From Emiliania huxleyi CCMP1516 (taxonomy: Eukaryota): a stretch of 64,000 bases of DNA. The DNA lies in NCBI RefSeq assembly GCF_000372725.1, contig NW_005201113.1, positions 190,763-254,762 of the forward strand, written 5' to 3'. The notes beneath the pieces are model-generated. The model saw only the letters and a list, made by a program, of their open reading frames with translations, was not told the origin of the DNA and did not search any database. Below are positions 13,547 through 34,656 of the stretch, one piece after another. How positions within the stretch are numbered: the stretch's first letter is position 1; every line of letters starts with the position of its first letter. Both the position numbers and the translations under genes were made by a program.

Positions 13547-14048
13547 GGACTCGTACGGAAAAGTCCGCCGACTAAATGATTTTCCACGACCGCACGGAAA
13601 CGCAGGGCCCCCCCCCCCCCCCCCCGACCGAGCTGCGAAACAGCGGCGTCCACACCGGCCGCCGCTCGAGAACCAAAACTTTCTTCGGCGCTGCGCGCCG
13701 CGTTCAACCCGATGACCAGTCCGGCTCTACAGCACGTGTGTAGCCGAGAGCAGTTGTGAAAGTGTGCGGTGTGTGTGTGCGCGACTGTGAGGGACGTGCA
13801 AACGTTGCATTTACGTAGACGGCGGGTACGGATTCATTTTGATATCGTAGAGCCGAACTCCGCGGGGGCGAGGGTGGAAGCGCACACTGAACACACTCTC
13901 GAGAGAGCGGAGTGGTGTGGCAGCCTCGCTATAGCGGGGGCGTTGCAGGGAGCCAGCGTTGAGCGTCCTTCTTTTGCTTGCTGAAGCGTCGTACGCGAGT
14001 GAGTTCGCCGCGCCGTATCTGCCTCTCTGGCACTGGGCCATGAATCAC

Positions 14049-15503
14049 TCACTCCCGCGACCACACCTCGATCTTCTTGGGCAGCAGCTGGTTCGACAGG
14101 TCCTCTCCGTGGCCTAGGCAGCGGTGGCCGCCCTGGCCCCAGGCAAAGACAGCGCCGTTGGCAGTGATGGCGAGGCCGTGGCTGCGTCCAGCCGACACAA
14201 CGACGACTTGATGGCCAGCAAAGGCTTCGATCTTCCTGGGCAGCAGCTGCCACAGCTGGTCGCCGTGGCCCAGCTTGCCAAAGGCTCCACCGCCCCAGCT
14301 CCAAGCGGCGCCATCGGCGGTAAGGGCGAGGCTGTGGCGGGCTCCTGCCGACACAGCGACGACGCGCCGCCCAGCAAAGGCCTCGATCTTCTTCGGCAGC
14401 AGCTGCGTCTCCTCGTCGCCGTGGCCCAACCGGCCAGAGTATCCCCAGCCCCAGCTCCAGACGGCGCCGTCGGCGGTGATGGCGAAGCTGTGGTCGCGTC
14501 CAGCCGAGACAGCGACGACGCGCTGACTCGCCAAGGCCTCAACCTTCTTTGTCAGCAGCTGGTCCTGCGTGTCGCCGTGGCCCAGCCGGCCGTAGTCTCC
14601 CCAGCCCCAGCTCCAGACGGCACCGTCGGCGGTGACGGCGAGGCTGTGGTATGCTCCAGCCGACACGGCGACGACGCGCCGCCCAGCGAAGGCCTCGACC
14701 TTCTTGGGCAGCAGCTGGTTCTGCTCGTCGCCGTGGCCCAGCTTGCCCCAGTCTCCATCGCCCCAGCTCCAGACGGCACCGTCGGCGGTGATTGCGAGGC
14801 TGTGGCCATCTCCAGCCGACACAGCAACGACGCGCCGCCCAGCGAAGGCCTCGACCTTCTTGGGCAGCAGCTGGTCCTGCGCGTCGCCGTGGCCCAGCTG
14901 GCCCCAATTTCCAGCACCCCAGCTCCAGACAGCGCCGTCGGCGGCGAGGGCGAGGCTGTGGCCATCTCCGGCCGACACGCTCACGGCGCGCTCGTCACCC
15001 AGCGTTGACGGGAGGCGGGTCGGCGTGTTGAGCTGCGTCCTTCCCTCGCCGTGGCCGAGAAGGCCTGGAAACTCCTCGTCCTCCTCCTCCTCCTCCCCCT
15101 CCGTTGCCACTGACCCGCACGACGAGAGCCGCCCCTTGCCGTCGATGAACACGCTGTGCCATTCGCCTGCTGCCGCCCTCGCCGGTGGGTTGGACTCGTG
15201 CAGCAACGCCGAATAGCACAGCCAGCGCACGGCGCAGGTCTCGTCCTCGGGCTGCGCCGGCAGCTCGAAGCCGCGCTCTTGCGCCCACAAGCGGATGCCC
15301 TGCTCCGCGAGCGAGGCGTGAAAGAGCAGGGAGACGGCCGCGACGCGAGCGATGTCGGCGGGGCTGTCGCAGCGAGAGAGGGCGCGCTCGACGAGCTCCC
15401 TGGGGAGATCGAGCAAGCGGACGGGCGGCGGCGCGACTGGCGAGGGCGCGGCGGTGGCGGCGGAGGCGAGGCGGCGCGAGCTGCGGCGCGGCGGGGTGGA
15501 CAT
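14049..15503 (-). CDS. F-box + RCC1-repeat protein
   Basis: RLLDLPRELVERALSRC...IARVAAVSLLF, followed by about 7 repeats of VSAGxxHSLALTADGAVWSWGxGxxGxLGHGD. Intronless. Confidence 0.9.
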   Translation of the reverse strand: MSTPPRRSSRRLASAATAAPSPVAPPPVRLLDLPRELVERALSRCDSPADIARVAAVSLLFHASLAEQGIRLWAQERGFELPAQPEDETCAVRWLCYSALLHESNPPARAAAGEWHSVFIDGKGRLSSCGSVATEGEEEEEDEEFPGLLGHGEGRTQLNTPTRLPSTLGDERAVSVSAGDGHSLALAADGAVWSWGAGNWGQLGHGDAQDQLLPKKVEAFAGRRVVAVSAGDGHSLAITADGAVWSWGDGDWGKLGHGDEQNQLLPKKVEAFAGRRVVAVSAGAYHSLAVTADGAVWSWGWGDYGRLGHGDTQDQLLTKKVEALASQRVVAVSAGRDHSFAITADGAVWSWGWGYSGRLGHGDEETQLLPKKIEAFAGRRVVAVSAGARHSLALTADGAAWSWGGGAFGKLGHGDQLWQLLPRKIEAFAGHQVVVVSAGRSHGLAITANGAVFAWGQGGHRCLGHGEDLSNQLLPKKIEVWSRE

Positions 15504-15819
15504 CGCGAAGAAAAGAATTCACTCGCCGCAATAAACACACTTGGTTTTTCTGAGGGGCCAGGATATGCAGCAAGGAGGGCGGAGCTGCGCCGAAAGGCGA
15601 AAGAAGCCGAGAGAACAAGGGAACGGCAGGCGGCGGCGGCGCAGGACGAGGCGGAAGAGAATGACGCGACGGAGGAAGTGACAAGGGAGAGAACGACGAG
15701 AATGGGACGGCCGCGAGGTGGCATGAAGGTTGCAGCGAGAATCGGCGAGAGACTGCGAAAAGAGATAGGAAGAGGCAGACTCCCTAGGGTGGGCGACGGC
15801 TAGCGCATCACACTCCTCT

Positions 15820-16479: not shown

Positions 16480-16920
16480 GACACGTCTGCAGTCGGTGCT
16501 CCTGCACAGAGTGCATTGGGGCGCACAGGCTGCGGTACAAAAACGGTGGCAGCGAGAAGGTGGACACCGGCTTTGTGACGTTTATGCGGCGGAGCTGCAG
16601 GAGAGAGAGAAGATAACCCACGCAAGAAGGGCCGGACGAGCCGGGCACTGCTCACAGCACGCGTCTGCTCTCAGGCGCACGAGCACATGTTCGACAGAGA
16701 GAGTGGGGGCGAGCATCCAGCCATGGGCGTGACGGAGGCGCTCGAGAAGGTCGCTGGCTTCAAACCCGCCTATCCGACCTTCGACGCCGCAAGCGATGTC
16801 ATGAATATCACGATCACAGGGCACAGTCTTGGGGGGTCGCAGGTGCAGATGCTGTGCCTACGAGTGTTGCATCCAGGCACGCCCCACGATCGCGGCGATC
16901 TTACCTCGAGACGAGTGTGA
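16480..16920 (+). pseudogene. Class 3 lipase fragment
   Basis: ITITGHSLGGSQ nucleophile motif. Upstream KVDTGF resembles VHxGF but lies in another frame. Confidence 0.55.
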
Positions 16921-16963
16921 AAACGCCCTGCGCCAAAACGCAGCGCGGGAAGCTGCTCAGCAC

Positions 16964-19090
16964 ATGCCTACGAGTGAGGCCCACTGGATCGCCCTCCTCG
17001 ACGGCGTCTTCGGCGACGACGACATTCTCAACATCATATTCAGCACCCTCAAACCGCTGAGCGACAAGCCTCGTGCCAGTCAAACCTGTAAACGGTTCTG
17101 TGCGCAGTTGAGCGAGCCGCAGTACAACACAAGGCGGAACTGGCTTATCAGCCGTACCTGCTATACGCAAAGCTTCAACGCAAGTCTGCTGCGTGCTCCA
17201 TGCTGGTGTGCGTGTGGCTGCCTTCGCGTTGCGTCCGCAGACGGCAGCAGCAAAATCTGGCTGCAGGGAAGGTGCGCGCATTTTCAGCGCCTGCTGTCTC
17301 TTGTCAAGCAGACTCCAGGCCGCTCGTACGACAGGGAAACCCACGCATGGTCAGTGGCGACGGAACACCTTCGCTCGCTCCTCGATCGAGTGTACCGCAG
17401 CGAGCCCGACGCACTGTTGCCCGGAGTTCGCGAGGCGCTCGCGAGGCTGCAGGCGCCTGGTCCGCCTGTGCCGACCGGCGCGGCTGCGAGCGGCAACGAC
17501 CCTGTTCGCGACTACTCGCGTTTCGGCGGCCCTTCGACGGTGCCCACGCGTCGTGCCGCGCTGATGCTGAGGGAGGTGGCCATGCGGGGCGAGGAGCAGC
17601 GACTCCGCGGGCTGTCGCCGGCTTATTTTGCGCGCCAGCAGCAGCTGCAGCAGCTGCGAGAGGCAGTGCGTGTCGGATCTGACATTCTGACGCGCAAGAG
17701 CGCTTCTCCAGACGAGTCAAGCAGGCTGACTGAAACAGCACAGGCCGTCCACGATCTTCACGAGGCGATTGAGGCGGTGCGTCCGCCACTTTCCGGCGCG
17801 ATGAAGCCAGACGACGAGAAGAAGATGTCCAAGGCTCGCGCGCTCGAAGAGGAGCTGAAAGCCGAGCGTCTGCGCGCGGCCGATGCTGTGGCTGAGCGGC
17901 GGCGCGTCGAAGCCGTCGATCGCCTTCGAGCCGCAATGTGTCCTCGACTGGACGACGAGCCTCTCGCCGAGAGGATGCATCTGCTCGAGGTGGCAATCAG
18001 CGAGGCCGAGGAAGAGGACGCTGCCGCGCAGGATGCTGCGCTGCTCGTCGAGGCAGCAGCGCGGCTCGATGCGCTACGTGAGGCGCGGGCGGAGGAGCTG
18101 CGAAAGGAGGCCGAGGCAAACGCGGCGGCAAGAGCGGCGGCCAGAAAGGCGGCGGCCATCGCCCAGCTTCGAGCCGTGCTCGCGGAGAGTGTCGACGGGC
18201 CTGTCGATCGCCGGCTGCGTCGGCTGGAGGCGGCGCTGTGCGAGGTGAAGGCGTCCGGCGTGATCGAGCTGTGGACTCCATCCGGCGTGATCGTGCACGT
18301 GGACGGCGAGCCCCAAGTCGAGCACGAGTTGCTCGAGGAGGCAGCTCGCCTCGAAACAGCGCTTGCGCACGAGCGACAGGAGGAGCAGGCTCGCGCGGCA
18401 GCGGCGGCGGAGGCGGCCAGACAGGCGGCGGCGGAGGCGCGTGCAGCGTCCAGAAAGAAGGCCGCCATCGAGCGGTTGAGCGAGGCGGTCGACAGAGCAG
18501 ACGAGGCGGTCGACAGCGCGGACGAGAACGAGCACGAGGGAGATCTTGAGGACGTGCTCACGCTCAAGGACGTGCTGGAGGAGCTGCAGACGGCGCTGTG
18601 CGAGGCGAAAAACGCCGGCGTGACGCCTGATGTGCCGGTGCACAACAGCACGGGAGGGGACGGACTGCTTGCCGCGGCGCGTGAGCTGTTGGTCGCAGTG
18701 AAGGCGGCGCACTGGGCGCGGGCCATGCGGCTGCCACGGGACGAGTGCGCGGTGGCACTTTGCGAATGCAACCGACCGCACGAGATGGGAGAGCTCGGGT
18801 ACCACGTGTGCCGCTTTTACGGCTTCTTCTCATGTCGAAGCTGCGGCAACGACTGGGAGAGCGGGCGCACACACGTCGATCTCGGCCGCAAGGTGCCGCT
18901 AGACTGCCGCCGCTGCCGTCGCGCGACCGAGCCGTTCAAGATGCAGCTGCTTCAGGATGCTGGCGGACACGGGGAGAGGGGCCGACATCCAGCGCATTTG
19001 TGCCACATGTGCAGGCGGCTCCAGCGCGAGCGCGGAGATCCGGATGCACGCTGTGACGGGAGGCGGCTCGACGGTCTGTACAATGATTGA
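16964..19090 (+). CDS. F-box-like + HARP-like + coiled-coil + 3CxxC zinc-finger protein
   Basis: DDILNIIFSTLKPLSDKPRASQTCKRF; LLSLVKQTPGRSYDRETHAWSVATEHLRSL; long A/E/R coil; FYGFFSCRSCGNDWES...CRRCRR...HPAHLCHMC. Confidence 0.7.
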   Translation: MPTSEAHWIALLDGVFGDDDILNIIFSTLKPLSDKPRASQTCKRFCAQLSEPQYNTRRNWLISRTCYTQSFNASLLRAPCWCACGCLRVASADGSSKIWLQGRCAHFQRLLSLVKQTPGRSYDRETHAWSVATEHLRSLLDRVYRSEPDALLPGVREALARLQAPGPPVPTGAAASGNDPVRDYSRFGGPSTVPTRRAALMLREVAMRGEEQRLRGLSPAYFARQQQLQQLREAVRVGSDILTRKSASPDESSRLTETAQAVHDLHEAIEAVRPPLSGAMKPDDEKKMSKARALEEELKAERLRAADAVAERRRVEAVDRLRAAMCPRLDDEPLAERMHLLEVAISEAEEEDAAAQDAALLVEAAARLDALREARAEELRKEAEANAAARAAARKAAAIAQLRAVLAESVDGPVDRRLRRLEAALCEVKASGVIELWTPSGVIVHVDGEPQVEHELLEEAARLETALAHERQEEQARAAAAAEAARQAAAEARAASRKKAAIERLSEAVDRADEAVDSADENEHEGDLEDVLTLKDVLEELQTALCEAKNAGVTPDVPVHNSTGGDGLLAAARELLVAVKAAHWARAMRLPRDECAVALCECNRPHEMGELGYHVCRFYGFFSCRSCGNDWESGRTHVDLGRKVPLDCRRCRRATEPFKMQLLQDAGGHGERGRHPAHLCHMCRRLQRERGDPDARCDGRRLDGLYND

Positions 19091-20039: not shown

Positions 20040-21587
20040 TCAGCAAAGCTTAGTGCTGCTCCAGCTGCCCCGCGCAGCCTCCGCCTCCGCCACCGCCCGC
20101 TCCGCCGCCCTCTTCGCCGCCTCCTGCGCCGCCTCCTTCGCCGCCTTCTCTGCCGCCCTCTCGGCCGCCGCATGCTCCTCGAGGGCGCGCACGCAATCGA
20201 TGTGGCCCTGCTCCTTGGCAATCTGCAGCGCTGTGTGTCCACTCGCCGCGCGCAGTTCCGTGTCGGCGCCCGCCCGCAGCAGGCAGCGGAGAGCGGCGGG
20301 GTGGTTCTGGTAGGCGGCGATCATCAGCACGGTGTTGCCGTCACTGTCCTGAAGGTTGATCTCCGCGCCGCGCTGCAGCAGCAGCTCGACCACCCGCTCG
20401 TGGCCGCAGAGGGCGGCGAACAGCAGCGCGGTGCCGCCGGCATTGTCCTGCCAGTCGATCTCCGCGCCGTGCTGCAGCAGCGCGTCGACCACCCGCGCGT
20501 GGCCTTGTCGGGCGGCGTACAGCAGCGCGGTGCGGCCTTTACTGTTCTGAAGGTCGATCGAAGCGCCACGCTGCAGCGACGCCACGGCCAGTCGCTCGTT
20601 GCCGCAGGAGGCGGCGGCCATCAGCAGCGTAATGCCGCTCTCATCCTCACGGGTGAAAGTCGCGTCCACCCGCCCGCCGCCGTCGAGCCACGCCAGCACC
20701 GCCTCGCCGCCTCGCCAAGCCGCCTCCACGATCTCCTTGGGGACGGCGTCCTCGCCCGTTCCACTCTCCACGCCGCCAGAAAAGGACGCGGCAGTTGGTG
20801 CCGCCGCTGCCCCCTTGCTCGAGGCGGCATCGCCGTCCGCCCCTGCGCCGCCCGCCGCGCCGATGTCCTCGGGAACAGGCCCGCTGCTGCCGCCCGAAGC
20901 GCTGCCTGCCCCCGCGCCGCCCGCCTCGACCGCCGCCGCGTCGCGCCTCTCCGCCGCCACCTCGCCGAGAAATGTCTTGACGGCGGCGACGCACTCGGTG
21001 TGGCCCTTCTCCTTGGCGATCTGCAGCGCCGTCTTGCCGTCCGCAGTGCGCAGCGCCATGTCTGCGCCCGCCCGCAGCAACTGGAGCACGACGACAGAAT
21101 GGCCATTGAAGGCGGCGTTCGCGACCGCAGTGTAGCCGTCGCTGTTCTGCAAGTCGACCTCTGCCCCGTGCCGTAGAAGCAAGTCGACCAGGCGCTCGAG
21201 GCCTCGGTTGGCGGCCAACGTTAGCGCAGTGCAACCGTGGCTGCTCTGTAGGTTGATCTCCGCGCCGTGCTGCAGCAGCGTCTCAGCCACCTGCACCTGG
21301 CCCGTAGCGGCGGCCGCAATCAGCGCGGTGCTGCCGACGCTGTTATGCGCGTCCGGCTTCGCGCCCCGCTTCAGCAGAACCTCGACCAGCTGCTTGTGGC
21401 CGTTGGTGGCGGCGATCGCCAGGAGCGTCCAGCCACTCACACCGCCACGCTCGCACGTCGCATCAACCCGCCCGTCCCCGGCGAGCCACGTCTGCACCAC
21501 GCCCACGAGCGCGAGCGGCGCAGCAGCCGCCGTTGAAGCGTGTCCGCGCCGGGAGGCGGCTGAGCCAGCTTTTGGTCGGCCGGGCAT
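20040..21587 (-). CDS. Ankyrin-repeat protein made of two duplicated ankyrin blocks
   Basis: Repeated G.TALxxAAxxGHxxVVxxLLxxGAEINLQ. Both blocks begin with WLxGxGRVDAT and end with TALQIAKExGHxxCV. Confidence 0.92.
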   Translation of the reverse strand: MPGRPKAGSAASRRGHASTAAAAPLALVGVVQTWLAGDGRVDATCERGGVSGWTLLAIAATNGHKQLVEVLLKRGAKPDAHNSVGSTALIAAAATGQVQVAETLLQHGAEINLQSSHGCTALTLAANRGLERLVDLLLRHGAEVDLQNSDGYTAVANAAFNGHSVVVLQLLRAGADMALRTADGKTALQIAKEKGHTECVAAVKTFLGEVAAERRDAAAVEAGGAGAGSASGGSSGPVPEDIGAAGGAGADGDAASSKGAAAAPTAASFSGGVESGTGEDAVPKEIVEAAWRGGEAVLAWLDGGGRVDATFTREDESGITLLMAAASCGNERLAVASLQRGASIDLQNSKGRTALLYAARQGHARVVDALLQHGAEIDWQDNAGGTALLFAALCGHERVVELLLQRGAEINLQDSDGNTVLMIAAYQNHPAALRCLLRAGADTELRAASGHTALQIAKEQGHIDCVRALEEHAAAERAAEKAAKEAAQEAAKRAAERAVAEAEAARGSWSSTKLC

Positions 21588-22070
21588 GAGGGCGCGTGTG
21601 GGCGGGAGGAGGGAAGAGAGCGCGCTCCGAGCACAGGGTGTTTCTTTCTTTCCGCGCCAGTCCGCGCCCTTGTCGTGCCAGTGTGCTGTGAGAGAGGCTT
21701 GTATCTTAAGAATTCTTTCTTTCGCGAAAGAGAACCAGAACGGCGTTGGTCGGCAAGCTAGTGTCTCTCCTGCCGCTGAGGCTGAGGCCGCGGCGCGCGG
21801 GAGAGACCCCTCCCTCAGGACTACTTTCTCTCCTTACATCCGGCGAAAGAAAACCAAACACCCTGAGCGGACGGAGCGAGCGGGACAGATTCGGGAAAAG
21901 AACAAAAGCTGCGAAAATAAACGTCCCCACCTTTGCAGGAAGGATTTTGCAAAAGCGAGGGGGAGGGGGCGCATAGCGGCGCTGCTGGGGATCTTCTGGC
22001 GCAGCGGGTTCTAAAAAGAAAAACGCCCCCCGCCTGTGGCCTTGAATGGACGTGCCCCGGCGCCTGTAAC

Positions 22071-25000
22071 ATGTTCGCCGTTCTTGCCCTCGTGCCGGCG
22101 GCACCGGCGGTGACCGAACCGTGCGCCTGTGCATTGAATTGGACGTATCCAGAGGGTGGCCAGGCTTGCAGCGAGACGCAGTTCGGTTGCCCGCCGGTCG
22201 CGTGCGACGGACCGTACCCACCGTGGTGCGTCGTCGAGTCGCTGCCGTGCACCGACACTGACCCTGATTCAGGTATCAACACTGGCGGAGATTGGATTCA
22301 TTGCGAGCCGGAGTATTCGCCACCGCCGCCGCCGCCGCCCTTTTCTTTTCTTCGCATCGGCGCCCTCTTGCCGCGGCAGCTGCCAAGCGGCGAGTTGATG
22401 CACCTTGGCCGGGCAGAGGAGCTGACGTCCGTGCTCATGGCAATCGAGGAAATCAACAACAAAACAGACGGCGTGGCGGACGATCTGCTTCCAAACACGC
22501 AGCTTTTGCTCGCACACCGCGACTCGCGCTGCGACCCGGCATTCGGCAGCGACGCGGCCTACCAGCTACTGCACCACGCGTTCGACGGCGCCGGCTGCGA
22601 CGCGCTGGTTGGTGCATACTGCTCAAGCGCGTCCATCCCCGCTGCGAGGCTGGCGGAGCTGACGGCCACCCCGCAGGTACTCACTCTAAGAGGACCGTGT
22701 GAGTGTTGCTTATGCAGTCTATAACGGTTGCTGACTCAACTGCTATTAGGTCTCTCACTCCTCTCAGAGCCCGGAATTGAGCGGCGACGACTTTCCCTTC
22801 TTTGCGCGGGTTGTCACCTCTGACTCCCTCATGGCTGTGGCTTTGGCTGAGGCCACTCGAAATCTCCTCGGCGTCAAGCGCGTGGCCACCATTGCGTGCA
22901 CGGACGCATACTGCACCGCCGGCGTGGCGGCCTTTGAGGCGGCTGCGTCTGCTCAAGGAATCACTGTCCTTGAGTCCGTCCGCTTCGAAAACGGTCAGAG
23001 CAACCTCGGCGAGCCCCTCGCTGCTTTGCGCGCCTCGTGTGCGACCGTCTTTGTCACCATTGCTCAAGCAGAGGATGCAGATCGCCTTTTGGAGCAAGCC
23101 CTCGGTGCACGGCTCGTCGGCCCTGAATTCACCTGGGTTGGCGACATCGGTCTGTTCGGAGGGCTGGGCTCGCTGGCCGGCCGTGGCCTCCCCGTGGACG
23201 ATTTCCGCGGAATACTCGCGATCACAAACTCAATTGCGCCAAGCGTGGCGTACGACGGCTACGCCTCTCGCAAGCGCGCGCGGCCATCCACGCTCGGCGA
23301 CGGGACAAATTGCGACCCGGCAGACGACGACGAGGGGCACAAACTCTGGTCAGTTGATACGGATGAGGATAGAGCGCCACGCTGCTTCGGTGCCAACAAT
23401 CAGTTTCCCGAGAGCGTCTATGCCCCGAGAGCTTACGACGCTGTGTACGCTGTGGCGCACGCAGTCCAAGCGCTGGTGGACGACCCGTTGGTTCAGCGTA
23501 TCGACGGCGACGCTTTGATGGCGGCCCTTCTCGCCGTCCGGTTCGAGGGCGTGACGGGCAAAATCTCCTTCTCATCCGAGCCGGCCACCCTCGGCGATCG
23601 CGCGGATGGCGTCCTTTACGACGTGATGAACGTGAACGCGTCAGGCGCGTGGGTCAAGCTGGGCACCTGGCAGCCGGCCGACAACTGGGAGCAGAGCTTT
23701 GCCGGCAACGGTCAGGCGCTGACGAGGCCAACGCCCGACAACAGCAAGCCGCCAGAACTCGTGGGCGATACGCTGCGCGTCGGAGTCTTTTGTGATCATT
23801 CGCCTTTGTCCTTCGTATACGAGCAATGCCAGCACATGATGCACATCATTGACCGGATCAATGACAAGAAGGACGGCTTCCTCGATGACTTACTTCCGGA
23901 TCACAGGCTCTTTTACTCTATGGTTCAGGCAGGGGTCGGTTGTGAAGAGACTGAGGAATCCATGCGAAGCAAGTTCGATCAGCTGTATTCCGACTTGAAT
24001 GGAGTCGTCGCCACCATCGGCCCGTTCTGCTCGGATGACGTGGCTGCTGTGACAGCCGCCGAGTGGCGCGCTGGAGCCGACATCTCCACCGTCGTGCTCT
24101 CGCCGTCGTCGACGGCTCCGATCTTGGCGAACGTAGGCGCATACCCGAACCTGTTGCGCCTCTCGAGCAACGACAAGCACATCGCGTCTGCCCTTGCAGC
24201 ACTCGCAGAGCGGCTGAGATGGCAAGCCATTTGCGTGCTCCATGACGACAGTCTATGGGGACGTGGGGCCATGCAGTCTTTCACCTCAGCCTTTGAGAGC
24301 TCAGGTGGGAAAGTCGTGAACAATGGTACGGCGGAATTTTCCAAGGCAGCTTTTGACGGCGGCAACTTGACAGGGAGCAACCTGCTCGACCAGCTCGAAG
24401 ACTGCCCTTCGCAAATCATCCTCCTTGTTGCCTACCCGGCTGCGCAGCGGGCGGTGTTTGCTGCCGCCTATGACGAAGACCGGCTTTGGGGGCCGGGCTA
24501 CGCTTGGCTCAACGCGTATCCGGCTGAGTCGGCCTTCTACAATGCAGATGGCTCGGTGAACACGTCCGCTGTGCTTGGCTCGGAAGGGTTGCTCGGAGTC
24601 ATCGAGTCATCCGGCGTGAGCAGCGCGTCCGACCTCAGCCTCAAGTATCGGGCGCTGTGGGATGAGGTGTCGAGCAGTCAAGGCTGCACCAACATGAGCC
24701 CGCAGTCCCGACCCTTCTGCGACCACGACGACGACGCCTCGACCCTTCCCGATTACACGGCAATGCACGTGGATGCAGTGATCAAGCTTGCAGTCTCTGC
24801 CGATGCTACGATCCGCAACGGCTCACGGCCAGAAGACGCAGATGCGCTGTTTGCGACGATGCTGGCAGCTGACACCGTTACGGGGCTGAGTGGGCCTAAT
24901 GTTTTCGACGCCAGCGGAGATCGACTCGGCACCTTAAACGTGCTCAACTACCGGCTGCTCACCGAAGCTTCTCAGTCAGGGCGCCGCCTTGGCGTATTTC

Positions 25001-26742
25001 TACCGCGTTCGTTGCTTGAGTTCTCAATCGTGGGCAGCTACTCTACCGCAACCTCGACGCTGCAGCTACCAGACGTTGGCGCTCTCGTCTTTTCGGGAGG
25101 GTCGACGGAGGTGCCACAGCACTCCTCCCCTCCTCCGCCGCCTCCGCCGCCATCACCTCCTCCTGAGCCGCCGTTGAGCACTGGAGTACTCGTCGTGATC
25201 GTCTTGCTTTCGATCCTGACCCCCGTCGTCGTGATTTGGGTCGCCGTTCGAGAGTGGCGCCGTCGGCGGGAGCGCGAGCACGAACGGACAAGACGGCAGT
25301 GGCTGAGATATCTCTCAACGGGACAGCCCGTGCAGCTGGAGCCGCTCACAGACGGCAACAAGTACCATCTCTTTCTGTCCCATTCGTGGCTTTCCGGACA
25401 GGATGCTGTCCGAGTGATGAAGGAACGGCTGCTCGATCTGTTGCCAGACACGAAGATCTTTCTCGACGTGGACGACTTGGCGTCCGGGCGAGGCGCAGCC
25501 GAGGTTGCTGTGTCCAAGATCCTCATCGTCTTTATGTCGGATGGCTACCTCACGCGCCCCAACACCGTGCGCGAACTGCTTCGGGCGATGACCCTTGAAA
25601 AGAGCATCATCACCGTCTTCGATGAGCGCAGCGTCTACATGGACAAAGATGTGCTCAGAGCAGCGATCGACGCAGCTTGCCTGAACCTTTCGAGGTGGGC
25701 TCTCGACGGCGCCTTGGCGAGCTGGGGCACAGAGGTCCCAACTGCGGCCGACATCTTTGCTGCGCTGACAGCCCGGCCTCTGCTGTGGACTCGTGTTCCA
25801 GCTTTCATGAACGTCACTTTGCACGCGTGCGTGACACCGCTGGTTCAGCCCAAGGCGCCCATGATGCAATCTGTCCCGTCTTGGGCGCCCATGTTGCGAC
25901 CAAGCGCAGACGGGAAAGCGGTTCTCTCCCCGGAGGCGCTCGAGCGCGCAATCGAGATGACGCAGACTGCTGCTGAGCCTGGCGCGGCGGCTTCGATGAG
26001 GCTGTACACGCGAGCCGGCATCAGCTTCACCTGGCAGAGGCTCCGCGTTGGAGAGAGCTTTCGAATCTACGCCAGCCCACACAACCCCGGCGCGCTCGAG
26101 CTCACCCAGGAGCTGTCTTGCCTGCTGCAGCAACTCGACATAGAGCTCGAAGTGACGACCTCCGTCGCCGACCTCACGGCCTGCAGCCACATGCTGCTGT
26201 ACCTCGACAAGCGCACCTGGACGGACGATGACCAGCGGATAGCCGCGCTCTCGAGCGACGTGAAGGCCGCCCTGGCCAGGCGCGTCCACCTGCTTCTGGT
26301 TCACGAGAGCGAGCCGTTTGAGTACATGGAGGGCAGCCACGCCGGCGTCAAGTTCGACGACCTCCTTGACTGCGTGGATGGCGGCACCCCCATAGAGCTG
26401 CTTCAGCGACAGGTGAGTCCCCGCGCTCGCTGCATCAGCACGCGTAGCACAGTGCCGTCGACTCACCTCCACCTCTGTCTCGCTCAGGTCTACTCGGAGG
26501 TTGCGGTGCCGCTCAAAGAAGGCATCTATCGGCCCGCAAGCCTGCTGCTGCTCGCACGCGCTGTCAGCGACCAGACGCGGGCTTCGGCGCTGCGACAGCT
26601 CACTTCTTCATCCAAAGAGCTGCGCCTGCCCTCTACGACTTTGGCGGAGGGCAGTGCAAGTCTGATGAGCCGGACGAAACATGACCGCTCGAGCCGGCAG
26701 AGCACCACACTACATGGACGGAGGGCGCTCCCTCCTCTCTGA
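22071..26742 (+). CDS. Single-pass receptor: Cys-rich N-terminus, two Venus-flytrap (ANF-receptor) domains, TM, TIR, second TIR-like domain
   Basis: Introns 22677-22749 and 26413-26487. VFT1: LRIGALLP...AIEEINN...DSRCDP...GAYCSSAS...PQ|VSHSSQSPELS...FPFFAR. VFT2: LRVGVFC...GPFCSDD...SPSSTAPIL...YPNLLRL. TM about 25180-25250. TIR: YHLFLSHSW...FLDVDDL...NTVREL. Confidence 0.88.
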
Positions 26743-28356: not shown

Positions 28357-28472
28357 ATCCTGCACCGTGTTTGTTATGACCCCCCCCAATGAGCACACCA
28401 GCGAGGGAGGGCGAGACGATCGAGGGGTCCCGTACCATGCGGAATCGACCCTATCCAGTGCTCAAGTGCTCA
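28357..28472 (+). repeat. Dispersed repeat (copy of 10382-10506)
   Basis: Reverse-complement match. Confidence 0.9.
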
Positions 28473-28578
28473 TCGTAGAAAGAAAGAAAGAAAGAAAGAA
28501 AACACACAACCCAAGGGAGGGACTCATCGTAGAGTCCGAGCACAAGCGAATCAACACTTGATTTTTCTCCCAGCTCCG

Positions 28579-29727
28579 ATGGCCTCCCACCGCATCGGCG
28601 CCCGCGTCGCGGGCCTCTCGCCAGCGCAGCTGTGCGCCATCATCGAGGCGCAGGCGGGCGCGAGCGACGCCGCGCTGCGCGTGGCGGAGGAGCACGCCGC
28701 ACGGCTCGTGGAGCAGCCCGAGTGGGTGCTCTCCGAGGTCCTCCTCTCGCCGGACCTCGCCCCGCACATCCTCGCCCATCTGCCGACCAAGGAGCACGCC
28801 GCCAAGGGGACGTGCCGCGCGTGGCGCCGCGGCTGGAAGGAGACGCTGAAGAAGCGCAAGAGGCCGCGCCTGCTCGTGATCGGCGGTGAAGGCAGCAACG
28901 ACGAGTTCGTCTACTCGGTGGAGCGGTACGACCCGTCAACGAATGCGCGGGAGGAGAAGGCGATGGCGCCGATGCCGTCGACACGAAGCTATGTCGGCAC
29001 GGCGGTCCTCGATGGCAAGCTCTACGCGGCGGGCGGCCATGATGAGGCTGACGAAGCAACTTCCAACCTTTTGGAGCGGTACGATTTTGAAACGAACGCG
29101 TGGGAGGCGGTGGCGTCGATGGGGACGGCGCGGCAGGAACACGCCGTGGCGGTGCTCGACGACAAGCTGTACGCTGTGGGAGGCTTCAACTACGACGACG
29201 GCTACCTCAGCTCGGTCGAGCGGTACGACCCGGCGACGAACGCGTGGGAGGCGGTAGCGCCGATGACGACGGCGCGGCATGAACACGCCATGGCGGTGCT
29301 CGACGACAAGCTGTACGCTGTCGGAGGCTATAACGACGACGACCACTACCTCAGCTCAGTCGAGCGGTACGACCCCGCCACGAACGCGTGGGAAGCGGTG
29401 GCGCCGATGGCGGAGGCGCGGCAGTCTGGCGTGGCGGTGCTCGACGGCAAGCTGTACGCTGTGGGCGGGTACGGTGGTGGCCACCTCAGCTCGGTGGAGC
29501 GGTACGACCCGGGGACGGGTGCGTGGGAGACGGTGGCGCCGCTGACGATGGCTCGCTTCGGGGCCGGGGTGGCGGCGCTGGAAGGCAAGCTTTACGCTGT
29601 GGGCGGCAGAATTCTCGATCCTGACAGGCCGGTTCACTCGGTGGAGCGGTTCGACCCGGCCTCGAACGCCTGGGAGGAGGTGGCGCCGATGGCAACGGCG
29701 CGGGCCTTTCCTTTCGCGCTCCTGTAG
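28579..29727 (+). CDS. F-box-like + Kelch-repeat protein
   Basis: VLLSPDLAPHILAHLP...KGTCRAWR, then about 6 repeats of AVLDGKLYAVGG...SSVERYDPATNAWEAVAPM. Intronless. Confidence 0.92.
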   Translation: MASHRIGARVAGLSPAQLCAIIEAQAGASDAALRVAEEHAARLVEQPEWVLSEVLLSPDLAPHILAHLPTKEHAAKGTCRAWRRGWKETLKKRKRPRLLVIGGEGSNDEFVYSVERYDPSTNAREEKAMAPMPSTRSYVGTAVLDGKLYAAGGHDEADEATSNLLERYDFETNAWEAVASMGTARQEHAVAVLDDKLYAVGGFNYDDGYLSSVERYDPATNAWEAVAPMTTARHEHAMAVLDDKLYAVGGYNDDDHYLSSVERYDPATNAWEAVAPMAEARQSGVAVLDGKLYAVGGYGGGHLSSVERYDPGTGAWETVAPLTMARFGAGVAALEGKLYAVGGRILDPDRPVHSVERFDPASNAWEEVAPMATARAFPFALL

Positions 29728-29844
29728 GCAGGGGCATAGGTGAGCTGTGAGCTGCGAGAGAGAGCGGCATGGACCCGGACGGGACGGACGAGGGCGAGAC
29801 GAGACGAGACGAGACGAGGCGGACGACCTCGAAACAGCGTTGGG

Positions 29845-29920
29845 CATGCTACGACCTACAGCACGCCGTCGTTGCCCGGCGCGGCCGAGCGCATCTCGGT
29901 CACATTTCGCCAGGTGTGGT
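29845..29920 (+). pseudogene. Possible AlkB/2OG-Fe(II) dioxygenase C-terminal fragment
   Basis: YDLQHAV, a frameshift, then AAERISVTFRQV, resembling HxV...RIxxTFR. Confidence 0.35.
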
Positions 29921-31124
29921 GCCAAGCCAGAGGGCCAAGTTCGAGAAGATGATCATTTTACGCCGTGGACGCATGGCGCTGTCGTTCCGTAGCCACGTCG
30001 TGCGGCAGTGGGTTTACGATACGTGTCGTTCGTATACAGGGTCCGTTCAGAGGGTACTGATCAGCGTTCTCTATTTCCTCGATCAAAGAATCCGCGCGCT
30101 GCCGCACCACGCGATCGTCGCTGCTCGCTCGCCGCTCTCCTCAATTCTCAATAGACCTTGAGGAGCTGGTCTCCGTCTCGTATTAAAAAAAATCAATCAC
30201 CTCGGAGAGAGCGGCCCTCTAGCAGCGGCGTTGTCCGTTGAGCGGACTGTCTCCTCGGACGCTCGCCCATCGAAGTGTCAGCTCTCTCTCTCACCGCGAC
30301 GCAAGAATTCTTTTTTGTCGACAACGCTAGTCTCACAATGCTGACTTACCCATACTAATACGGACCCTCTACGATGCGGCTCCGCCTCTTCTCGTCTCGT
30401 TGTCGCTTGTCGCCTGTGCGGCCGCCGCCTCCTCCGAGCTGGCGTTCCGCGGCACTCCAAGGCCGATCAGCTGGTTGCCGCGGGGGCGGAGCCGTGCCGG
30501 CCGCGTGGGCGCCTCCGTCGTACGGCAGCCCTGGCTCTGCGTGGCTGGGCCATCCTCTCCAACTGGCTCTACTTTTTCTCTCCCTCGGCCTCAACGCCGA
30601 CACACACCGCCGCGCGCGCACGCACGCGGCCAGTCTCCGCGCGCGCGCCGCGCAGCGGTACACCTGCTCAAAGAAAATGAAAGAATCGGAGCTCACGTCG
30701 CCACCGCCTCCGCCCCGGTCGGCACACGGCAGCACGACCCCAGCACATACAGGCTCGCAGCAGCAGGACGAGAGTGCGGTCGACGGAAAGTGCGGCCTGG
30801 GCCGCTGTGGACCTCCCGGCGCAGCTAACTACGGCTTTAGTAGCTTTGAAAGCGGTCGGGGCTCCGGCCCAAGCGCCAGCGGCCTCCCCGTGCACCCTCA
30901 GCAGAGCTGCGGCGGCGGCGGCGGCTGCTGCTTGGGTTGGCGGCGAGCAAGCGCGCGACGTCGACACGTCGTGCAACGCGTACGTGGCGACGTAGCAGAG
31001 GATGAAGGAGGAGGACGCCGAGCTCGAGCGTGTACTTGTAGAGGGCACCCCGCCGCCTTGACGCAGCGCGGCCCAGCCAACGCGGGGCGCCCTCCCACCT
31101 CCGTTCTGTCGCGGGTGCGAGCGA

Positions 31125-32342
31125 CTACTCGTCGTCGGAGTCGTCCGAGTCGTCGTCGTCCGAGTCGTCGTCGTCCGAGCCGTCGTCCTCGGTCTCCGGC
31201 GTCGGGAGCTCGCCGCCGCCAATCACGCCGGCCGACCGCGCGTCGCTCACCGCAAACGCAGCGATGTCGAAGAGGAAGGGCTCTGCTCCGAAGTTGAAGC
31301 GGCAGCGGTCACCGTCCTCGTGCAGCGCCACCGTCGGGTAAAGTCGGGGGCAAAGTCGGGACAGGCAGCAGTTCTCAAAGGCAGTGCCCTGCAGCTTGCC
31401 ATTTTTTGTGAAGAAGACGGAGCGGCGGCGTAGGTCGAGCCCGCAGCCCACCGTGTCGACCGCTGAGCCGCGGTGGCCCCCGAAGGGCTCGCCGAAGGTG
31501 ACGCCGTTCATGATCGCGCCGTTCGTGCGAGGGCCCGCGACCGCGTCGTGGCGCCACTTCGCGCCGTCATCGCTGTGGTAGCCGTACGCCGTGCTCCGCC
31601 AGCCGATGTGCAGTGCACGCTGTCCATCGTACGCCGAGCCGACCGTGACGCCGACCGAAGAGGCGCTCGTGGAGACCTCAAAGTACGCGAGCTCGTCCTC
31701 GATACACTGGAGCGGGCGGCGGCCGCGCAGCACGAGACCATGGTGTCTGTACGTCAAAGTCTGTAGGCCGACGGCCGTCGAGAAGCCGTGTTCGTCGACC
31801 TGCACCTGCCCCGATCCGCCCAGCAGGTTTACAAACTCGAAGCCAGTGTGGCGGCGTCGGAAGCGAAGCCGCCACTGTCCGTGCAAATTCTGCGGCTGCA
31901 CGTGGAGCGCTTCCTCGTCAAGAGTTGAGGCGGCGTAGTCTTCTGCGCTGAGGGTCTCTCCAAACAGGGGAGGGAGGGAATAAGCGCGGGTCATGACCTC
32001 GATCTGATCTCGAAGGTACCGTTCCCACGCGACGAGATTCACGGGTTTGACTCTCCACGTCCCGTCCGCCTCATTGTCCAACACCTGCGCCACCCGACCG
32101 TTCAGGTCTGGCCTCGCAGTCAGCCCGGAGAGCTCGACAAAACAGCCCACGCGGACGTCGCGCAGCGGCGGCTCCGCCGACCCCACCCGCGGACCCCAGA
32201 CCTTGCGGTAGAGCGCGCGCCACACGCGGTCGTCGCGGCCCTGAACGCGCCACAGCCGTGCGACCGCTGCCGCCGCAACGAGTGCGTGCGCGTCCGGGAG
32301 CTGCGCGAGGATTGTGCAGAGCAGGTCGGGGTCCTCAAGCAC
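31125..32342 (-). CDS. F-box + SH3-like + SPRY (RanBP9/10-type) protein
   Basis: LEDPDLLCTILAQLP...AAVARLWR; VELSGLTARPDLNGR; YFEV...VGV...IGWRSTAYGYHSDDG...DTVGCGLD...VFFTKNG...LYPTVAL...FNFGAEPFLFD; acidic tail. Start codon not resolved. Confidence 0.85.
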   Translation of the reverse strand: MLEDPDLLCTILAQLPDAHALVAAAAVARLWRVQGRDDRVWRALYRKVWGPRVGSAEPPLRDVRVGCFVELSGLTARPDLNGRVAQVLDNEADGTWRVKPVNLVAWERYLRDQIEVMTRAYSLPPLFGETLSAEDYAASTLDEEALHVQPQNLHGQWRLRFRRRHTGFEFVNLLGGSGQVQVDEHGFSTAVGLQTLTYRHHGLVLRGRRPLQCIEDELAYFEVSTSASSVGVTVGSAYDGQRALHIGWRSTAYGYHSDDGAKWRHDAVAGPRTNGAIMNGVTFGEPFGGHRGSAVDTVGCGLDLRRRSVFFTKNGKLQGTAFENCCLSRLCPRLYPTVALHEDGDRCRFNFGAEPFLFDIAAFAVSDARSAGVIGGGELPTPETEDDGSDDDDSDDDDSDDSDDE

Positions 32343-33337
32343 AAGCGTCGAAGTCTCTGCGGCCGCGCTCTCCTTGCACCGGACAAGAGTGCGCTGGCGC
32401 GTTCTTCCCGGCTGTGAAGCCGCATTGCGAGCCGGGGACTACTCTCGCGCACGCTCTATCGTATTCGGGTAGGAGCATACGCATGAGACCTTTTAACGAC
32501 TGTGGCTGGACCCAGAGGTCGCGCCTAGGCGCCTTCGTTCGAGCTCCTTCGGGTCCTCCCCCGGCTTCATCGCTAGCATCGCAATCCAGTCATTCCCGCG
32601 GATACGCTTCTCCTGCCCCTGCGGCCGTTCCAGCCGTGGTTCCACGCGTCGGCCGTCCACCCCGCTCGTGGGGGGGGGCCTAGCTCTCGTCTCCCCTCGG
32701 GAGGGGGGGGGGGCAGGGCCCGGATTCGCCGACGGCCCCGCCTCTCCCCCCCTCCGCTCCGCATCGGGCCGCAGACTGCGCAGTAGTCGCGTCGCCTCCC
32801 CCTTCGCCCGGTCCTCCTCGATTCGGTCCCTCACTGACCGGATATCAAAGGCCGAGTTGTGTTCGGATAGCGGCCCGCCGATGCCACCCGCCTCTTCACA
32901 CGGCAAACGTACGCCTTCAGCGCCTGCTCCCCCGACTGTGTCGGTCCCGGTGCAATGTCGTTGACGAGGTAGTCCTCCCCCTCCCACCGGAAAACCTGTC
33001 CAAGAAGGTCCGTCGAGCCAACCAGTCGTCTCGCCAGGCTCCGCACTTCCCGCGGCTGCACCGGCCTGAGAACGCCGGTGCTGACCGCGAGCGACAGACC
33101 TATCGCCCTAAGCTCCGCCAGGACCGCCTTCTCGCCCGCCGCCGCGGCCGCCCGATCCATCTCGGCCCCTCGAATTGCCTCCTCCCGTCTTCTTGCTCTG
33201 TCTGCCGCCGGCACGAACCTCGTCGGGCTGCCTCGTGTCCTTCCTGGCAAGATCCGCGTCGGGGCCGGCCGATCCGCCTGTGCCGCCCCGGCTCGGGGTG
33301 CGGTCGCGCCCTTGTAAAATTCTCTTTCGCCAATGCG

Positions 33338-34656
33338 ATGACGGAGCCCGCAGACGCCTTCGAGTGGGACTTTGCCGATGAGCACCTCCTCGTCCTGCTC
33401 GCCCACCTCCCGACACAGCAGCTCCTCCGCTGCGCGCGCGTCAGCCGCCAGTTCCGCGCCATCGCCGGCGAGCTGATGCGGCGCGGCCTCTCTCCCGGCA
33501 GCGCTTGCCACGCGCACTGGGCGGCGGGGACGGTCGAGTGGGCCGCGGGCGAGGCGCTGGCCGTGGCGCGCGGCGAGGTGGAAGACCTCTCCTCGGAGGG
33601 CCCGCGCCGGCGCAAGGCCGGCGCCTCTGCCGCCGCCAAGGCGAGCATCGTCGTCGCGATGCTGCGGCTGGCGACGGCGCAGGCGTTCAAGGGGCTCGCC
33701 TGTGGCGCGGTGCCCGACGTCGCGTTTGTGTTTGCCACCGACAGCCTCTGTGCGTCCAAGGCCAAGACCTGCGACCTCGCGGATAGCCTCTCGCGGCTGC
33801 TGCCTCCGTCGACGCTAGTCATCGCAACGCGCTCCACCGGCGTCATCGGGCCTGCTCCGTGCGCCGCTGAGGCCTACGACGACGGAGCCGCGGGATGGGA
33901 CGCGCCCGCCGTCGAGATTGAGGACGGCCGCGCGCTGGTCGTACTGCTCGGCGCGCTGCCGGGACGGGAGGTGTCCTGGTTCGTCGGCCAGGCTTGCGGC
34001 ACTTTGACACGGCACGAGGGCGCGTGGTGGCAGCAGTCGCTGGCCGCCCCGCCGCCGCCGCCGCCAGCACGCACGCACGGCGATCCAACTCCACCCGGCC
34101 AGACACTTCGCGACTTCGTCGACGGCGGCGAGCCGGGGTGCGGCTTCGCCTGCCTCTCGACGAGCTGTGAGCGTGAACAGCGCCTCTTCACGCCTCCAGT
34201 GTGAACAGGCGCGGCTTCGTCTGCCTCTCGACGCCGCGCCTCGACAAGATGGAGAGGGACCTCTTCCACCCTCAAACCGGCGCCGTCGAGCAGTCCTCGC
34301 GCGGCGACGCGGGCTTCGCTCTCGCGGGCGGCGTGGCGGAGGTGGTGGCGTTGCGCGCGCCACGCCGCAGCGCGAGCTCGCTGGGCTCCTCCTCCTCCGC
34401 CGCCGCAGCCGACGGCGCGGTGGCAGTGAGCGCCCTGCTGCTCCGATTTTCCGCCGCCGAGGGCACCGCCGAAGAGGCGCGGCCGCAGTTCACCAGCGCG
34501 ACACTGCCGTCGGACTTGCTGGCATGCGCCCCTGCGCCGACTTGGGCAAGGTACGCGATGCCGAGAGACAGCCGATATTCCATACCGATATACAGCGGAG
34601 TTTACCCTCCCGCACCTTGCCTAGGTACGGCGTCAGCCCCGTCTCGGCGGCTTCGG
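33338..34656 (+). CDS. F-box + FIST-domain protein (FBXO22-like), runs into the gap
   Basis: DEHLLVLLAHLPTQQLLRCARVSRQFR; PDVAFVFAT...LVIATRSTGVIG...EIEDGRALVVLLGALPG; intron 34138-34208; LAGGVA. Confidence 0.7.

What the first reader, a model, noticed from the sequence alone, without database searches (positions are those of the whole stretch)
22071..26742. Double Venus-flytrap / single-TM / TIR receptor: a Toll-like architecture that may sense small molecules
Seen: after removing two short introns, one reading frame encodes a Cys-rich N-terminus, two tandem periplasmic-binding-type domains, a Pro linker, one TM helix and a TIR domain (YHLFLSHSW...FLDVDDL...YLTRPNTVREL, Glu codon at 25573). 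A second degenerate TIR-like unit follows (FRIYASPHN...HMLLYLD...LLLVHE). Established: Venus-flytrap domains bind amino acids or small ligands and dimerise in class C GPCRs, iGluRs and receptor guanylyl cyclases, and TIR domains with this Glu often act as oligomerisation-activated NADases. Inference: an extracellular metabolite could trigger TIR signalling or cell death in an alga, for example on viral or grazer cues. I do not know a characterised receptor of this design.
Basis: partly seen in the sequence, partly recalled or inferred. Interest (0 to 1): 0.88.

Follow-up and report, generated by a model that had tools for sequence, protein, structure and literature searches.

The report
Algal twin-flytrap, twin-TIR surface receptor
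A bloom-forming marine alga has a real, spliced and transcribed gene for a protein with two Venus-flytrap domains, one predicted membrane helix and a TIR immune-signalling domain followed by a TIR-like partner, which likely turns binding of a small molecule outside the cell into NAD-based signalling inside; a one-flytrap relative was already described in 2025.

Summary
The gene (22071-26742, +) has three exons and gives 1507 residues; both GT-AG introns are spliced in public transcript data. Pfam finds two Venus-flytrap (ANF_receptor) domains above cut-off. One hydrophobic helix follows, then a domain whose model matches SARM1 TIR (Z 15.0) and whose Glu is kept in 141 of 141 aligned relatives. 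The second TIR-like unit is not decaying: it is a conserved domain of its own. The organism is Emiliania/Gephyrocapsa huxleyi or a close relative. The TIR + TIR-like module hits 1706 sequence clusters; most relatives with a readable N-terminus are multi-pass, and the outer domains vary. The two flytraps come from different lineages (22% identical), and a second double-flytrap receptor was built from a third lineage. The idea is partly in print: Shaler et al. 2025 described a one-flytrap/EGF/TM/TIR protein of G. huxleyi and proposed receptor function. This gene is not among their 15. Best reading: a ligand-gated, dimerising NAD+-cleaving receptor; ligand, catalysis and role are untested. New variant of a known kind.

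The parts
22071..22676 (+). Exon 1 (202 codons): short hydrophobic N-terminus (likely signal peptide), Cys-rich segment, Pro linker, first part of VFT1
   Evidence: similarity to metagenome contigs L001/L002 begins at 22071; CCMP1516 models start at the same Met
22113..22325 (+). Cys-rich N-terminal segment of unknown family (about 70 aa)
   Evidence: no Pfam family even at E 5; ESM Atlas best 0.78, chance level; 86% identical in the CCMP1516 models
22347..23679 (+). Venus-flytrap domain 1 (ANF_receptor, mGluR-like), interrupted by intron 1; borders approximate
22677..22749 (+). Intron 1, 73 nt, GT..AG, phase 0
   Evidence: skipped in contigs of X1, X5, X6
22750..26412 (+). Exon 2 (1221 codons): one open frame from VFT1 through VFT2, TM and TIR1 into TIR2
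23761..25119 (+). Venus-flytrap domain 2 (ANF_receptor; best PDB sequence hit GABA-B1); borders approximate
25120..25182 (+). Pro-rich stalk
   Evidence: sequence
25183..25248 (+). Single predicted transmembrane helix, followed by an Arg-rich stretch (REWRRRR)
   Evidence: hydropathy window
25360..25845 (+). TIR1, full TIR fold, predicted self-pairing surface
25573..25575 (+). GAA, putative catalytic Glu of TIR1 (residue 1144 of the spliced protein)
   Evidence: Glu in 141 of 141 relatives with a residue in the column
25846..26010 (+). Variable linker between TIR1 and TIR2
   Evidence: low pLDDT; dN/dS about 1.2 on few changes
26059..26565 (+). TIR2: conserved TIR-like domain, interrupted by intron 2; Asp (GAC, 26257-26259) at the position of the TIR1 Glu
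26413..26487 (+). Intron 2, 75 nt, GT..AG, in frame and without a stop
   Evidence: skipped in X17 reads and X1, X5, X6 contigs
26488..26742 (+). Exon 3: last strand and helix of TIR2, Ser/Arg-rich tail, TGA

Best explanation
This is an expressed three-exon gene of a coccolithophore for a predicted single-pass membrane receptor whose two Venus-flytrap domains likely bind amino-acid-like small molecules outside the cell and whose inner TIR domain would then pair up and cleave NAD+ to make a signal. Shown: gene structure, splicing, the two flytraps, family conservation. Predicted: outside-N/inside-C topology, TIR fold, a symmetric TIR1-TIR1 dimer. Inferred: ligand closes a flytrap, this brings or re-orients the TIR1 domains of two or more receptors, Glu1144 cleaves NAD+ into an ADP-ribose-type messenger; TIR2, which lacks the TIR1 pocket motifs, likely acts as a built-in partner or brake. 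The two unrelated flytraps likely read two different ligands. The gene is one member of a large family in which a fixed TIR + TIR-like output is joined to exchangeable sensor modules. Whether the cue is danger (lysate, virus, grazer) or nutrient is open.
For: Splicing and sense transcription. Whole gene contiguous at 93% in metagenome DNA contigs L001/L002, frame open in L002 from VFT1 to TIR2, and full-length in the public model EMIHUDRAFT_454995. dN/dS 0.23-0.50 in the domains against 1.2 in the linker, one pair, few changes. 8 N-glycosylation sequons and 24 Cys in 1007 residues before the helix, 2 and 5 in 470 after it, Arg run just behind the helix. TIR fold. TIR1 Glu 141 of 141, Asp of FLD 135 of 137, His 120 of 123, Trp 121 of 123 among rows with a residue. 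Pocket positions aligned to the mGluR motifs GASASS, SYAST, VPPDS: Ser kept in 9 of 10 algal flytrap rows (the exception is the 7TM protein P0159), Thr or Ser in 9 of 10, Asp in 9 of 10; S165 and T188 bind glutamate in mGluR1 and D208I loses the response (PMC5372683, passages; mapping of these numbers onto the motifs is recalled). A relative carries a type-II periplasmic-binding domain (NMT1) on the same output module (P0162). Complex model of two copies of the cytoplasmic module: score 0.52, best of 3 controls 0.00, runs agree in at least 22% of contacts, pLDDT at least 71; the mark was reached by 21 of 30 solved pairs and 0 of 23 single chains (microbes), 17 of 29 and 0 of 30 in eukaryotes; the interface (W20, G23-Q24-D25, R28, R155 of the construct) uses residues conserved in the family. 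TIRs of several protists make cADPR and a Chlamydomonas TIR makes 3'cADPR, Glu-dependent where tested (bioRxiv 10.64898/2026.04.20.719644, passages).
Against: No activity, ligand or location was measured. TIRs with the Glu can be inactive (IL-1R9, IL-1R10, TLR2); amoeba TirB and TirD showed no NAD+ processing where TirC did (10.64898/2026.04.30.722052). Pfam TIR_2 is under its cut-off. This TIR1 has Thr where 122 of 141 relatives have Cys three residues before the Glu. VFT1 has Gln at the Thr pocket position here and in CCMP1516 (Thr in P0006), and VFT2 has Trp at the Tyr position, so the ligand need not be an amino acid. The N-terminal hydrophobic stretch is short and no signal-peptide predictor was available. 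The complex pass may come from memory of solved TIR dimers: in eukaryotes only 1 of 7 pairs without an older solved relative passed, the alignment was not used, and the chain held the 25 intron-2 residues. No listed transcript contig bridges the Pro stalk with 31 letters on both sides (294 pieces were not shown). The gene is not among the virus-responsive TIR genes of Shaler 2025.
Confidence: 0.5

Rival explanations
1. The receptor senses a small molecule, but its TIR pair works as a scaffold, as in Toll-like receptor signalling, recruiting other TIR proteins without cleaving NAD+.
For: Glu-bearing TIRs without measurable activity exist. IL-18R, IL-1RAcP and MyD88 TIRs score Z 12.7-13.2, not far below SARM1 at 15.0. 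The species has at least 15 other TIR proteins, some cytoplasmic. Cys-to-Thr change near the Glu.
Against: The Glu is invariant in 141 of 141 relatives down to about 30% identity, whereas most TLR and interleukin-receptor TIRs lack it.
Confidence: 0.2
2. The flytraps bind a peptide, protein or particle surface, or only hold the dimer together, as the flytraps of natriuretic-peptide receptors and the N-terminal domains of ionotropic glutamate receptors do (recalled); the receptor is then a pattern or contact sensor.
For: Single-pass topology as in receptor guanylyl cyclases (recalled). Relatives carry Cys-rich Ephrin_rec_like repeats, beta-helix, C-type lectin or CUB domains on the same output. 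Contigs 8-10% apart lie on the same stretch within one run, as expected of diversified immune receptors or of paralogues. Pocket changes in both flytraps.
Against: Ser/Thr/Asp pocket positions are kept across three flytrap lineages only about 20% identical; best solved relatives are mGluR, GABA-B, CaSR and Leu/Ile/Val-binding proteins.
Confidence: 0.18
3. The receptor is a death switch: activation drains NAD+ and kills the cell, as SARM1 or bacterial TIR effectors do, instead of making a messenger.
For: SARM1 is the closest structure; Shaler 2025 propose NAD+ depletion for the cytoplasmic TIRs of recovered cells.
Against: The gene is found transcribed in several studies; the same paper assigns the membrane-bound TIRs to a signal-making role; a large family with many sensors fits signalling better.
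Confidence: 0.1
4. The architecture is an artefact: a mis-assembly, two fused genes or a pseudogene.
For: One CCMP1516 model (EMIHUDRAFT_451652) lacks the TM segment; no single listed transcript piece spans the gene.
Against: VFT1 second half, VFT2, TM, TIR1 and most of TIR2 lie in one 3663-nt open exon; independent DNA contigs hold the whole gene; the 98.8% identical sister model 454995 has the TM; the layout recurs at 60-70% identity (P0006, P0005).
Confidence: 0.02

Closest known systems
G. huxleyi receptor-like TIR protein cogent1101_i1 (Shaler et al. 2025, New Phytol, PMC12489294)
   Same: Same or nearly the same species; extracellular type-1 periplasmic-binding (flytrap) domain, one TM helix, intracellular TIR with the Glu; receptor-like signalling proposed.
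   Different: That protein is listed with a periplasmic-binding and a Ca-binding EGF-like domain and has another TIR sequence subtype; it is induced 0.5 h after infection (log2 3.4, adjusted p 5e-8). The window's gene has two flytraps, is not among the 15 listed, and a second TIR-like domain is not mentioned in the section and table I read. Neither has been assayed.
Public gene models EMIHUDRAFT_454995 and _451652 (E. huxleyi CCMP1516)
   Same: Orthologue or close paralogue: 86-99% identity per domain, same layout in 454995.
   Different: Named only 'hypothetical' or 'receptor ligand binding region domain-containing protein'; Pfam at E 0.01 does not report the TIRs.
Toll-like and interleukin-1 receptors
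   Same: Ectodomain, one TM helix, cytoplasmic TIR (established knowledge).
   Different: No LRR or Ig ectodomain; Glu invariant in the family; second TIR-like domain.
Class C GPCRs (mGluR, GABA-B, CaSR) and receptor guanylyl cyclases
   Same: ANF_receptor flytrap with kept pocket positions; single-pass layout as in receptor cyclases (recalled).
   Different: No 7TM, kinase-homology or cyclase domain; two flytraps in tandem; output is a TIR.
Enzymatic TIR NADases (SARM1, plant TNL TIRs, Thoeris ThsB, protist TIRs)
   Same: Fold and Glu in the helix after the third strand.
   Different: Activation would come from an extracellular flytrap across a membrane, not from ARM/SAM, NB-ARC or phage sensing; activity untested.
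Dictyostelium TirE (tandem diverged TIRs; 10.64898/2026.04.30.722052)
   Same: Two diverged TIRs in tandem, missed by earlier Pfam models (passage).
   Different: RCC1 repeats, no flytrap; relationship not tested.

Membership tests
TIR domain (TIR1) | Five-strand, five-helix TIR fold | tested here: met
   Model vs SARM1 TIR Z 15.0, rmsd 2.2 A, 128 residues; ranks 1-14 are TIR or TIR-containing chains; Foldseek
TIR domain (TIR1) | Pfam TIR or TIR_2 curated cut-off | tested here: not met
   TIR_2 17.4 of 28 bits, TIR 13.2 of 21.3; some relatives pass, e.g. P0008 38 bits
Enzymatic TIR NADases | Catalytic Glu in helix C | tested here: met
   E82 of the construct lies in helix 77-88 after strand 62-69; 141 of 141 relatives. 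Residue-level match to the SARM1 Glu was not printed by the aligner
Enzymatic TIR NADases | Self-association | tested here: inconclusive
   Model supports a TIR1-TIR1 dimer, 0.52 vs best control 0.00, may be from memory
Enzymatic TIR NADases | NAD+ cleavage | not testable with these tools
   needs an assay
TIR domain (TIR2) | Homology to TIR by profile | tested here: met
   HHalign TIR1 vs TIR2 family profiles: probability 88%, E 3e-6, 90 columns, acidic residue in register; single-sequence HMM scores are weak (best 10 bits)
TIR domain (TIR2) | TIR fold distinct from other Rossmann-like folds | tested here: inconclusive
   LepA GTPase Z 9.8 and SARM1 TIR Z 9.6 are tied; Foldseek is headed by nucleoside deoxyribosyltransferases
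Venus-flytrap (ANF_receptor) domain | Pfam PF01094 above cut-off, twice | tested here: met
Amino-acid-binding flytraps | Ser/Thr/Asp/Tyr pocket positions | tested here: inconclusive
   VFT1 S,Q,D,Y; VFT2 S,T,D,W
Toll-like receptors | LRR ectodomain | tested here: not met
   no LRR family at E 0.1
Toll-like receptors | Single TM helix and cytoplasmic TIR | tested here: met
   (hydropathy window only)
Class C GPCR | Seven-helix 7tm_3 domain | tested here: not met
   one helix; no 7tm_3 hit
Receptor guanylyl cyclase | Kinase-homology and cyclase domains | tested here: not met
   no such Pfam hit; cytoplasmic part accounted for by TIR1 and TIR2
G. huxleyi receptor-like TIR proteins (Shaler 2025) | Extracellular periplasmic-binding domain, one TM, TIR with Glu | tested here: met
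G. huxleyi receptor-like TIR proteins (Shaler 2025) | Induced during EhV infection | tested here: inconclusive
   TIR sequence not among the 15 rows of Table S9; ids 451652 and 454995 and PF01094 absent from the spreadsheet; the large text supplement could not be read

The most novel reading that the evidence does not exclude
Haptophytes run a large receptor system of their own in which a fixed TIR + TIR-like enzyme module is gated from outside the cell by exchangeable sensors: one or two flytraps from at least three lineages, a type-II binding protein, multi-pass domains, and possibly a class C GPCR-like 7TM. This gene would be a two-input, metabolite-gated NADase: a surface receptor that makes an ADP-ribose messenger directly on binding an amino-acid-like cue, the TIR counterpart of a receptor cyclase.
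Probability: 0.35. Interest if true: 0.8.

Novelty: new variant of a known kind. Interest (0 to 1): 0.52.

Why it matters
G. huxleyi blooms are ended by giant viruses, and how single algal cells sense lysate, virus or neighbours is largely open. A flytrap has a pocket that can be screened and a TIR has an assay, so this receptor makes a cue-to-messenger route testable in vitro. A TIR enzyme gated by an extracellular metabolite would add a new input type to TIR signalling. The family is large and under-annotated because many members fall below the Pfam cut-off. The general design was already proposed for a paralogue in 2025, which lowers the surprise.

Tried and rejected
Sequence search of TIR1 against PDB chains: 0 hits at E 10. 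Family profile against PDB: best hits NELF-C/D at E about 1e-3, lying over the helical tail and linker, set aside as chance; TIRs follow at E 0.018-0.9. Foldseek's top RPP1 hits span 385 columns at rmsd 17 A and say nothing on the TIR1-TIR2 arrangement. Separate origins of the single-pass receptors from the TIR1 tree: two starred groups in a quick tree, but one clade is not rejected (p-AU 0.44), so not claimed; the tree used 63 of 179 TIR1-bearing proteins (88 cut at the N-terminus, 12 short, 16 near-duplicates dropped). No close relative in viral contigs (0 of 6 candidates) or prokaryotic genomes (0 of 86); single-protein patterns find only close relatives, so this does not show absence. Cys-rich N-terminus: no Pfam family, Atlas 0.78, no match to the Cys-rich start of P0162. 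Joints 22337-25129 link the two Pro-codon repeats with sides of 20-25 letters and were read as foreign reads, not splicing. No genome is held for the window, so paralogues in this genome were not counted. Earlier scan notes: nothing by words or sequence; two bacterial membrane-TIR notes did not bear on the reading. Paper searches with 0 hits; searches gave no paper on this architecture.
Full report
Gene structure. The region holds one gene on the + strand: exon 1 22071-22676, a 73-nt GT..AG intron, exon 2 22750-26412, a 75-nt GT..AG intron, exon 3 26488-26742; 1507 residues. Nine of 17 listed public runs hold half or more of the sampled words. I laid four of them. Intron 1 is skipped in contigs of X1, X5 and X6. 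Intron 2 is skipped in all four, with 6 raw poly(A) reads in X17. In X17 the reads over the coding region, including the spliced ones, lie almost all in one orientation, which fits sense transcription. No listed contig spans the gene, and none of those shown bridges the Pro stalk firmly (294 pieces not shown). But VFT1's second half, VFT2, the helix, TIR1 and most of TIR2 lie in one open exon. Two metagenome DNA contigs with the same match coordinates (probably one population) carry 22071-26657 at 93%. Against one of them dN/dS is 0.23 (VFT1 part), 0.39 (VFT2), 0.48 (TM region), 0.50 (TIR1), 1.21 (linker) and 0.43 (TIR2); the counts are small. The closest named proteins are two E. huxleyi CCMP1516 models. 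EMIHUDRAFT_454995 has the full layout; its 98.8% identical sister lacks the helix, probably a modelling error.

Domains. Pfam ANF_receptor hits twice above cut-off. The best solved relatives are mGluR6 for VFT1 (E 1e-15) and GABA-B1 for VFT2 (E 1e-6). A hydropathy window finds one helix, followed by an Arg run; sequons and Cys are concentrated before it (8 and 24 in 1007 residues against 2 and 5 in 470). Pfam TIR_2 is under cut-off. The model of the cytoplasmic part, built on 83 sequences, has pLDDT 86.8 and pTM 0.84. Residues 11-172 match SARM1 TIR at Z 15.0, rmsd 2.2 A over 128 residues, with other TIRs next (Foldseek agrees). The Glu at 25573 sits in the helix after the third strand.

The second unit. 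It folds confidently alone (pLDDT 87.4). Structure search leaves its family open: a GTPase domain (Z 9.8) and SARM1 TIR (Z 9.6) are tied, and Foldseek lists nucleoside deoxyribosyltransferases first. The TIR1 and TIR2 family profiles align at 88% probability, E 3e-6, with the TIR2 Asp in register with the TIR1 Glu and a 9-residue gap in the loop after the second strand. Across 127 relatives that position is Glu 85, Asp 30, other 12, and several other positions are nearly invariant. It is a maintained TIR-like domain that lacks TIR1's SH-W and DVDD motifs. I infer a partner or brake, and cannot exclude a second active site.

Family. The TIR1+TIR2 stretch hits 1706 clusters at 50% identity (E up to 1e-3); the best 150 were returned. 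Of 156 relatives examined, 142 entered the TIR1 alignment, 127 the TIR2 alignment and 113 both. The TIR1 Glu is present in 141 of 141 rows with a residue. The nearest Atlas clusters are eukaryotic, mostly Haptophyta among the 13-19 members with a record; this is a lead only. Among 63 proteins kept for the tree, 52 have four or more predicted helices before the TIR, 8 have flytraps and one helix, 1 has an NMT1-type binding domain with CUB, 2 are other; the flytrap class is enriched by my targeted searches. Pfam on 83 protein entries (a few near-duplicates) shows Ephrin_rec_like repeats, beta-helix, C-type lectin, CUB, ankyrin, PDZ, C2 and EF-hand additions. The flytraps fall into three well-supported lineages about 20% apart. 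The window's pair joins two of them (22% identical), whereas P0161 has two flytraps of the third (43%), so a double flytrap was put together at least twice. P0200 has a third-lineage flytrap but a TIR1 sister to this gene's, which points to exchange of ectodomains. P0005 has the VFT2 type behind a different N-terminus. The nearest outside relative of VFT2 (35%) is P0159: 5'-nucleotidase C-terminal domain, flytrap, weak 7tm_3 hit, ending in the first motif of a TIR; this is a lead, as the record stops there. One clade for all single-pass members is not rejected by the TIR1 data.

Pocket and assembly. Aligned to mGluR motifs, VFT1 has Ser, Gln, Asp, Tyr and VFT2 has Ser, Thr, Asp, Trp at the four pocket positions; Ser, Thr/Ser and Asp are each kept in 9 of 10 algal rows. 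This favours amino-acid-like ligands without naming one. Two copies of the cytoplasmic module with NAD scored 0.52 against a best control of 0.00 (agreement at least 22%, pLDDT at least 71; 21 of 30 solved pairs and 0 of 23 single chains reach the mark in microbes, 17 of 29 and 0 of 30 in eukaryotes, but only 1 of 7 without an older solved relative). The symmetric interface lies on TIR1's first helix and the loop before its last helix, on conserved residues. It resembles the AE interface of plant TIRs (recalled), so the pass may be from memory.

Literature. Shaler et al. 2025 (PMC12489294; seen: abstract, passages, section 20 whole, spreadsheet parts 1, 234, 235 and searches, PDF supplement passages; the large text supplement could not be read and nucleotide cells were cut) list 15 differentially expressed TIR genes. 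One, cogent1101_i1, has a periplasmic-binding type 1 domain, an EGF-like domain, one helix and a TIR with Glu, is induced at 0.5 h, and is proposed to be receptor-like. The window's TIR is not among the 15, and the two CCMP1516 ids are absent from the spreadsheet. bioRxiv 10.64898/2026.04.20.719644 (passages) shows active TIRs in several protists; its tables of about 16,000 TIR proteins with architectures were not seen and may list this one. 10.64898/2026.04.30.722052 (passages and section 5) notes uncharacterised eukaryotic TIR clades and a tandem-TIR amoeba protein. PMC3727952 (passages) reports class C GPCR-like proteins in diatoms and E. huxleyi, one type with a 5'-nucleotidase C domain, with no mention of TIR. 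PMC5372683 (passages) gives the mGluR1 pocket residues. 10.64898/2026.10.11.758280 (passages) concerns a viral TIR-nuclease. Ten searches found no paper on a double flytrap with a TIR, on the TIR + TIR-like module, or on a biochemical test of such a receptor; the library lacks most subscription papers.

Verdict. The flytrap/TM/TIR design and the receptor idea are in print for a paralogue. What this adds is the two-lineage double flytrap, the conserved second domain and the size and modularity of the family. I commit to a ligand-gated, dimerising NAD+-cleaving receptor at about even odds; ligand, product and role remain to be measured. New variant of a known kind, interest 0.52.

Noticed in passing
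proteins P0159 and P0187 (metagenomic): 5'-nucleotidase C-terminal domain + flytrap + weak 7tm_3 (E 1e-4, 3.5e-5, under cut-off), ending in a TIR first-strand motif: a possible class C GPCR-TIR fusion; the record stops there.
   Followed up: partly
protein P0162 (metagenomic): NMT1/THI5-like type-II binding domain + CUB + one TM + the same TIR module: a second small-molecule-binding fold on this output.
   Followed up: partly
window 24336-24735 and 25833-26095: Single runs hold two versions of the stretch, 0 vs 31 differences in 400 letters (X1) and 1 vs 26 in 263 (X6): very divergent alleles or paralogues; not compared with a control gene.
   Followed up: no
many relatives: An unnamed 6-8 helix membrane domain (weak Pfam TRP PF06011 hits in a few) with Cys-rich Ephrin_rec_like repeats or a beta-helix precedes the TIR module in most long members.
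   Followed up: partly
proteins P0043, P0045, P0135: Apparently soluble members of the same TIR + TIR-like family, two of them (P0045, P0135) with ankyrin repeats; P0068 has two TIR_2 hits.
   Followed up: no
window 20040-21587 (-): Ankyrin-repeat gene head to head with the receptor, about 480 nt between start codons.
   Followed up: no
window 21500-21700 and 21921-21963: Short repeated elements upstream: very high depth and many loose ends in all four runs.
   Followed up: no
window 10610-15518, 16805-19090, 28393-34204, 44479-47631, 62776-63924: The neighbourhood is rich in ubiquitin-system and repeat genes: RING, RCC1, Kelch, F-box-like (with SPRY), ARM-HECT, LRR; also AdoHcyase at 40147-41637 and a helicase at 1266-2453.
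   Followed up: no
window 26413-26487: Intron 2 is in frame with no stop, so retention would insert 25 residues into TIR2; retention was not listed or tested.
   Followed up: no
L002 5262-5532: Sequence downstream of the gene in L002 matches six other short places of the window (84-96%), a dispersed repeat.
   Followed up: no
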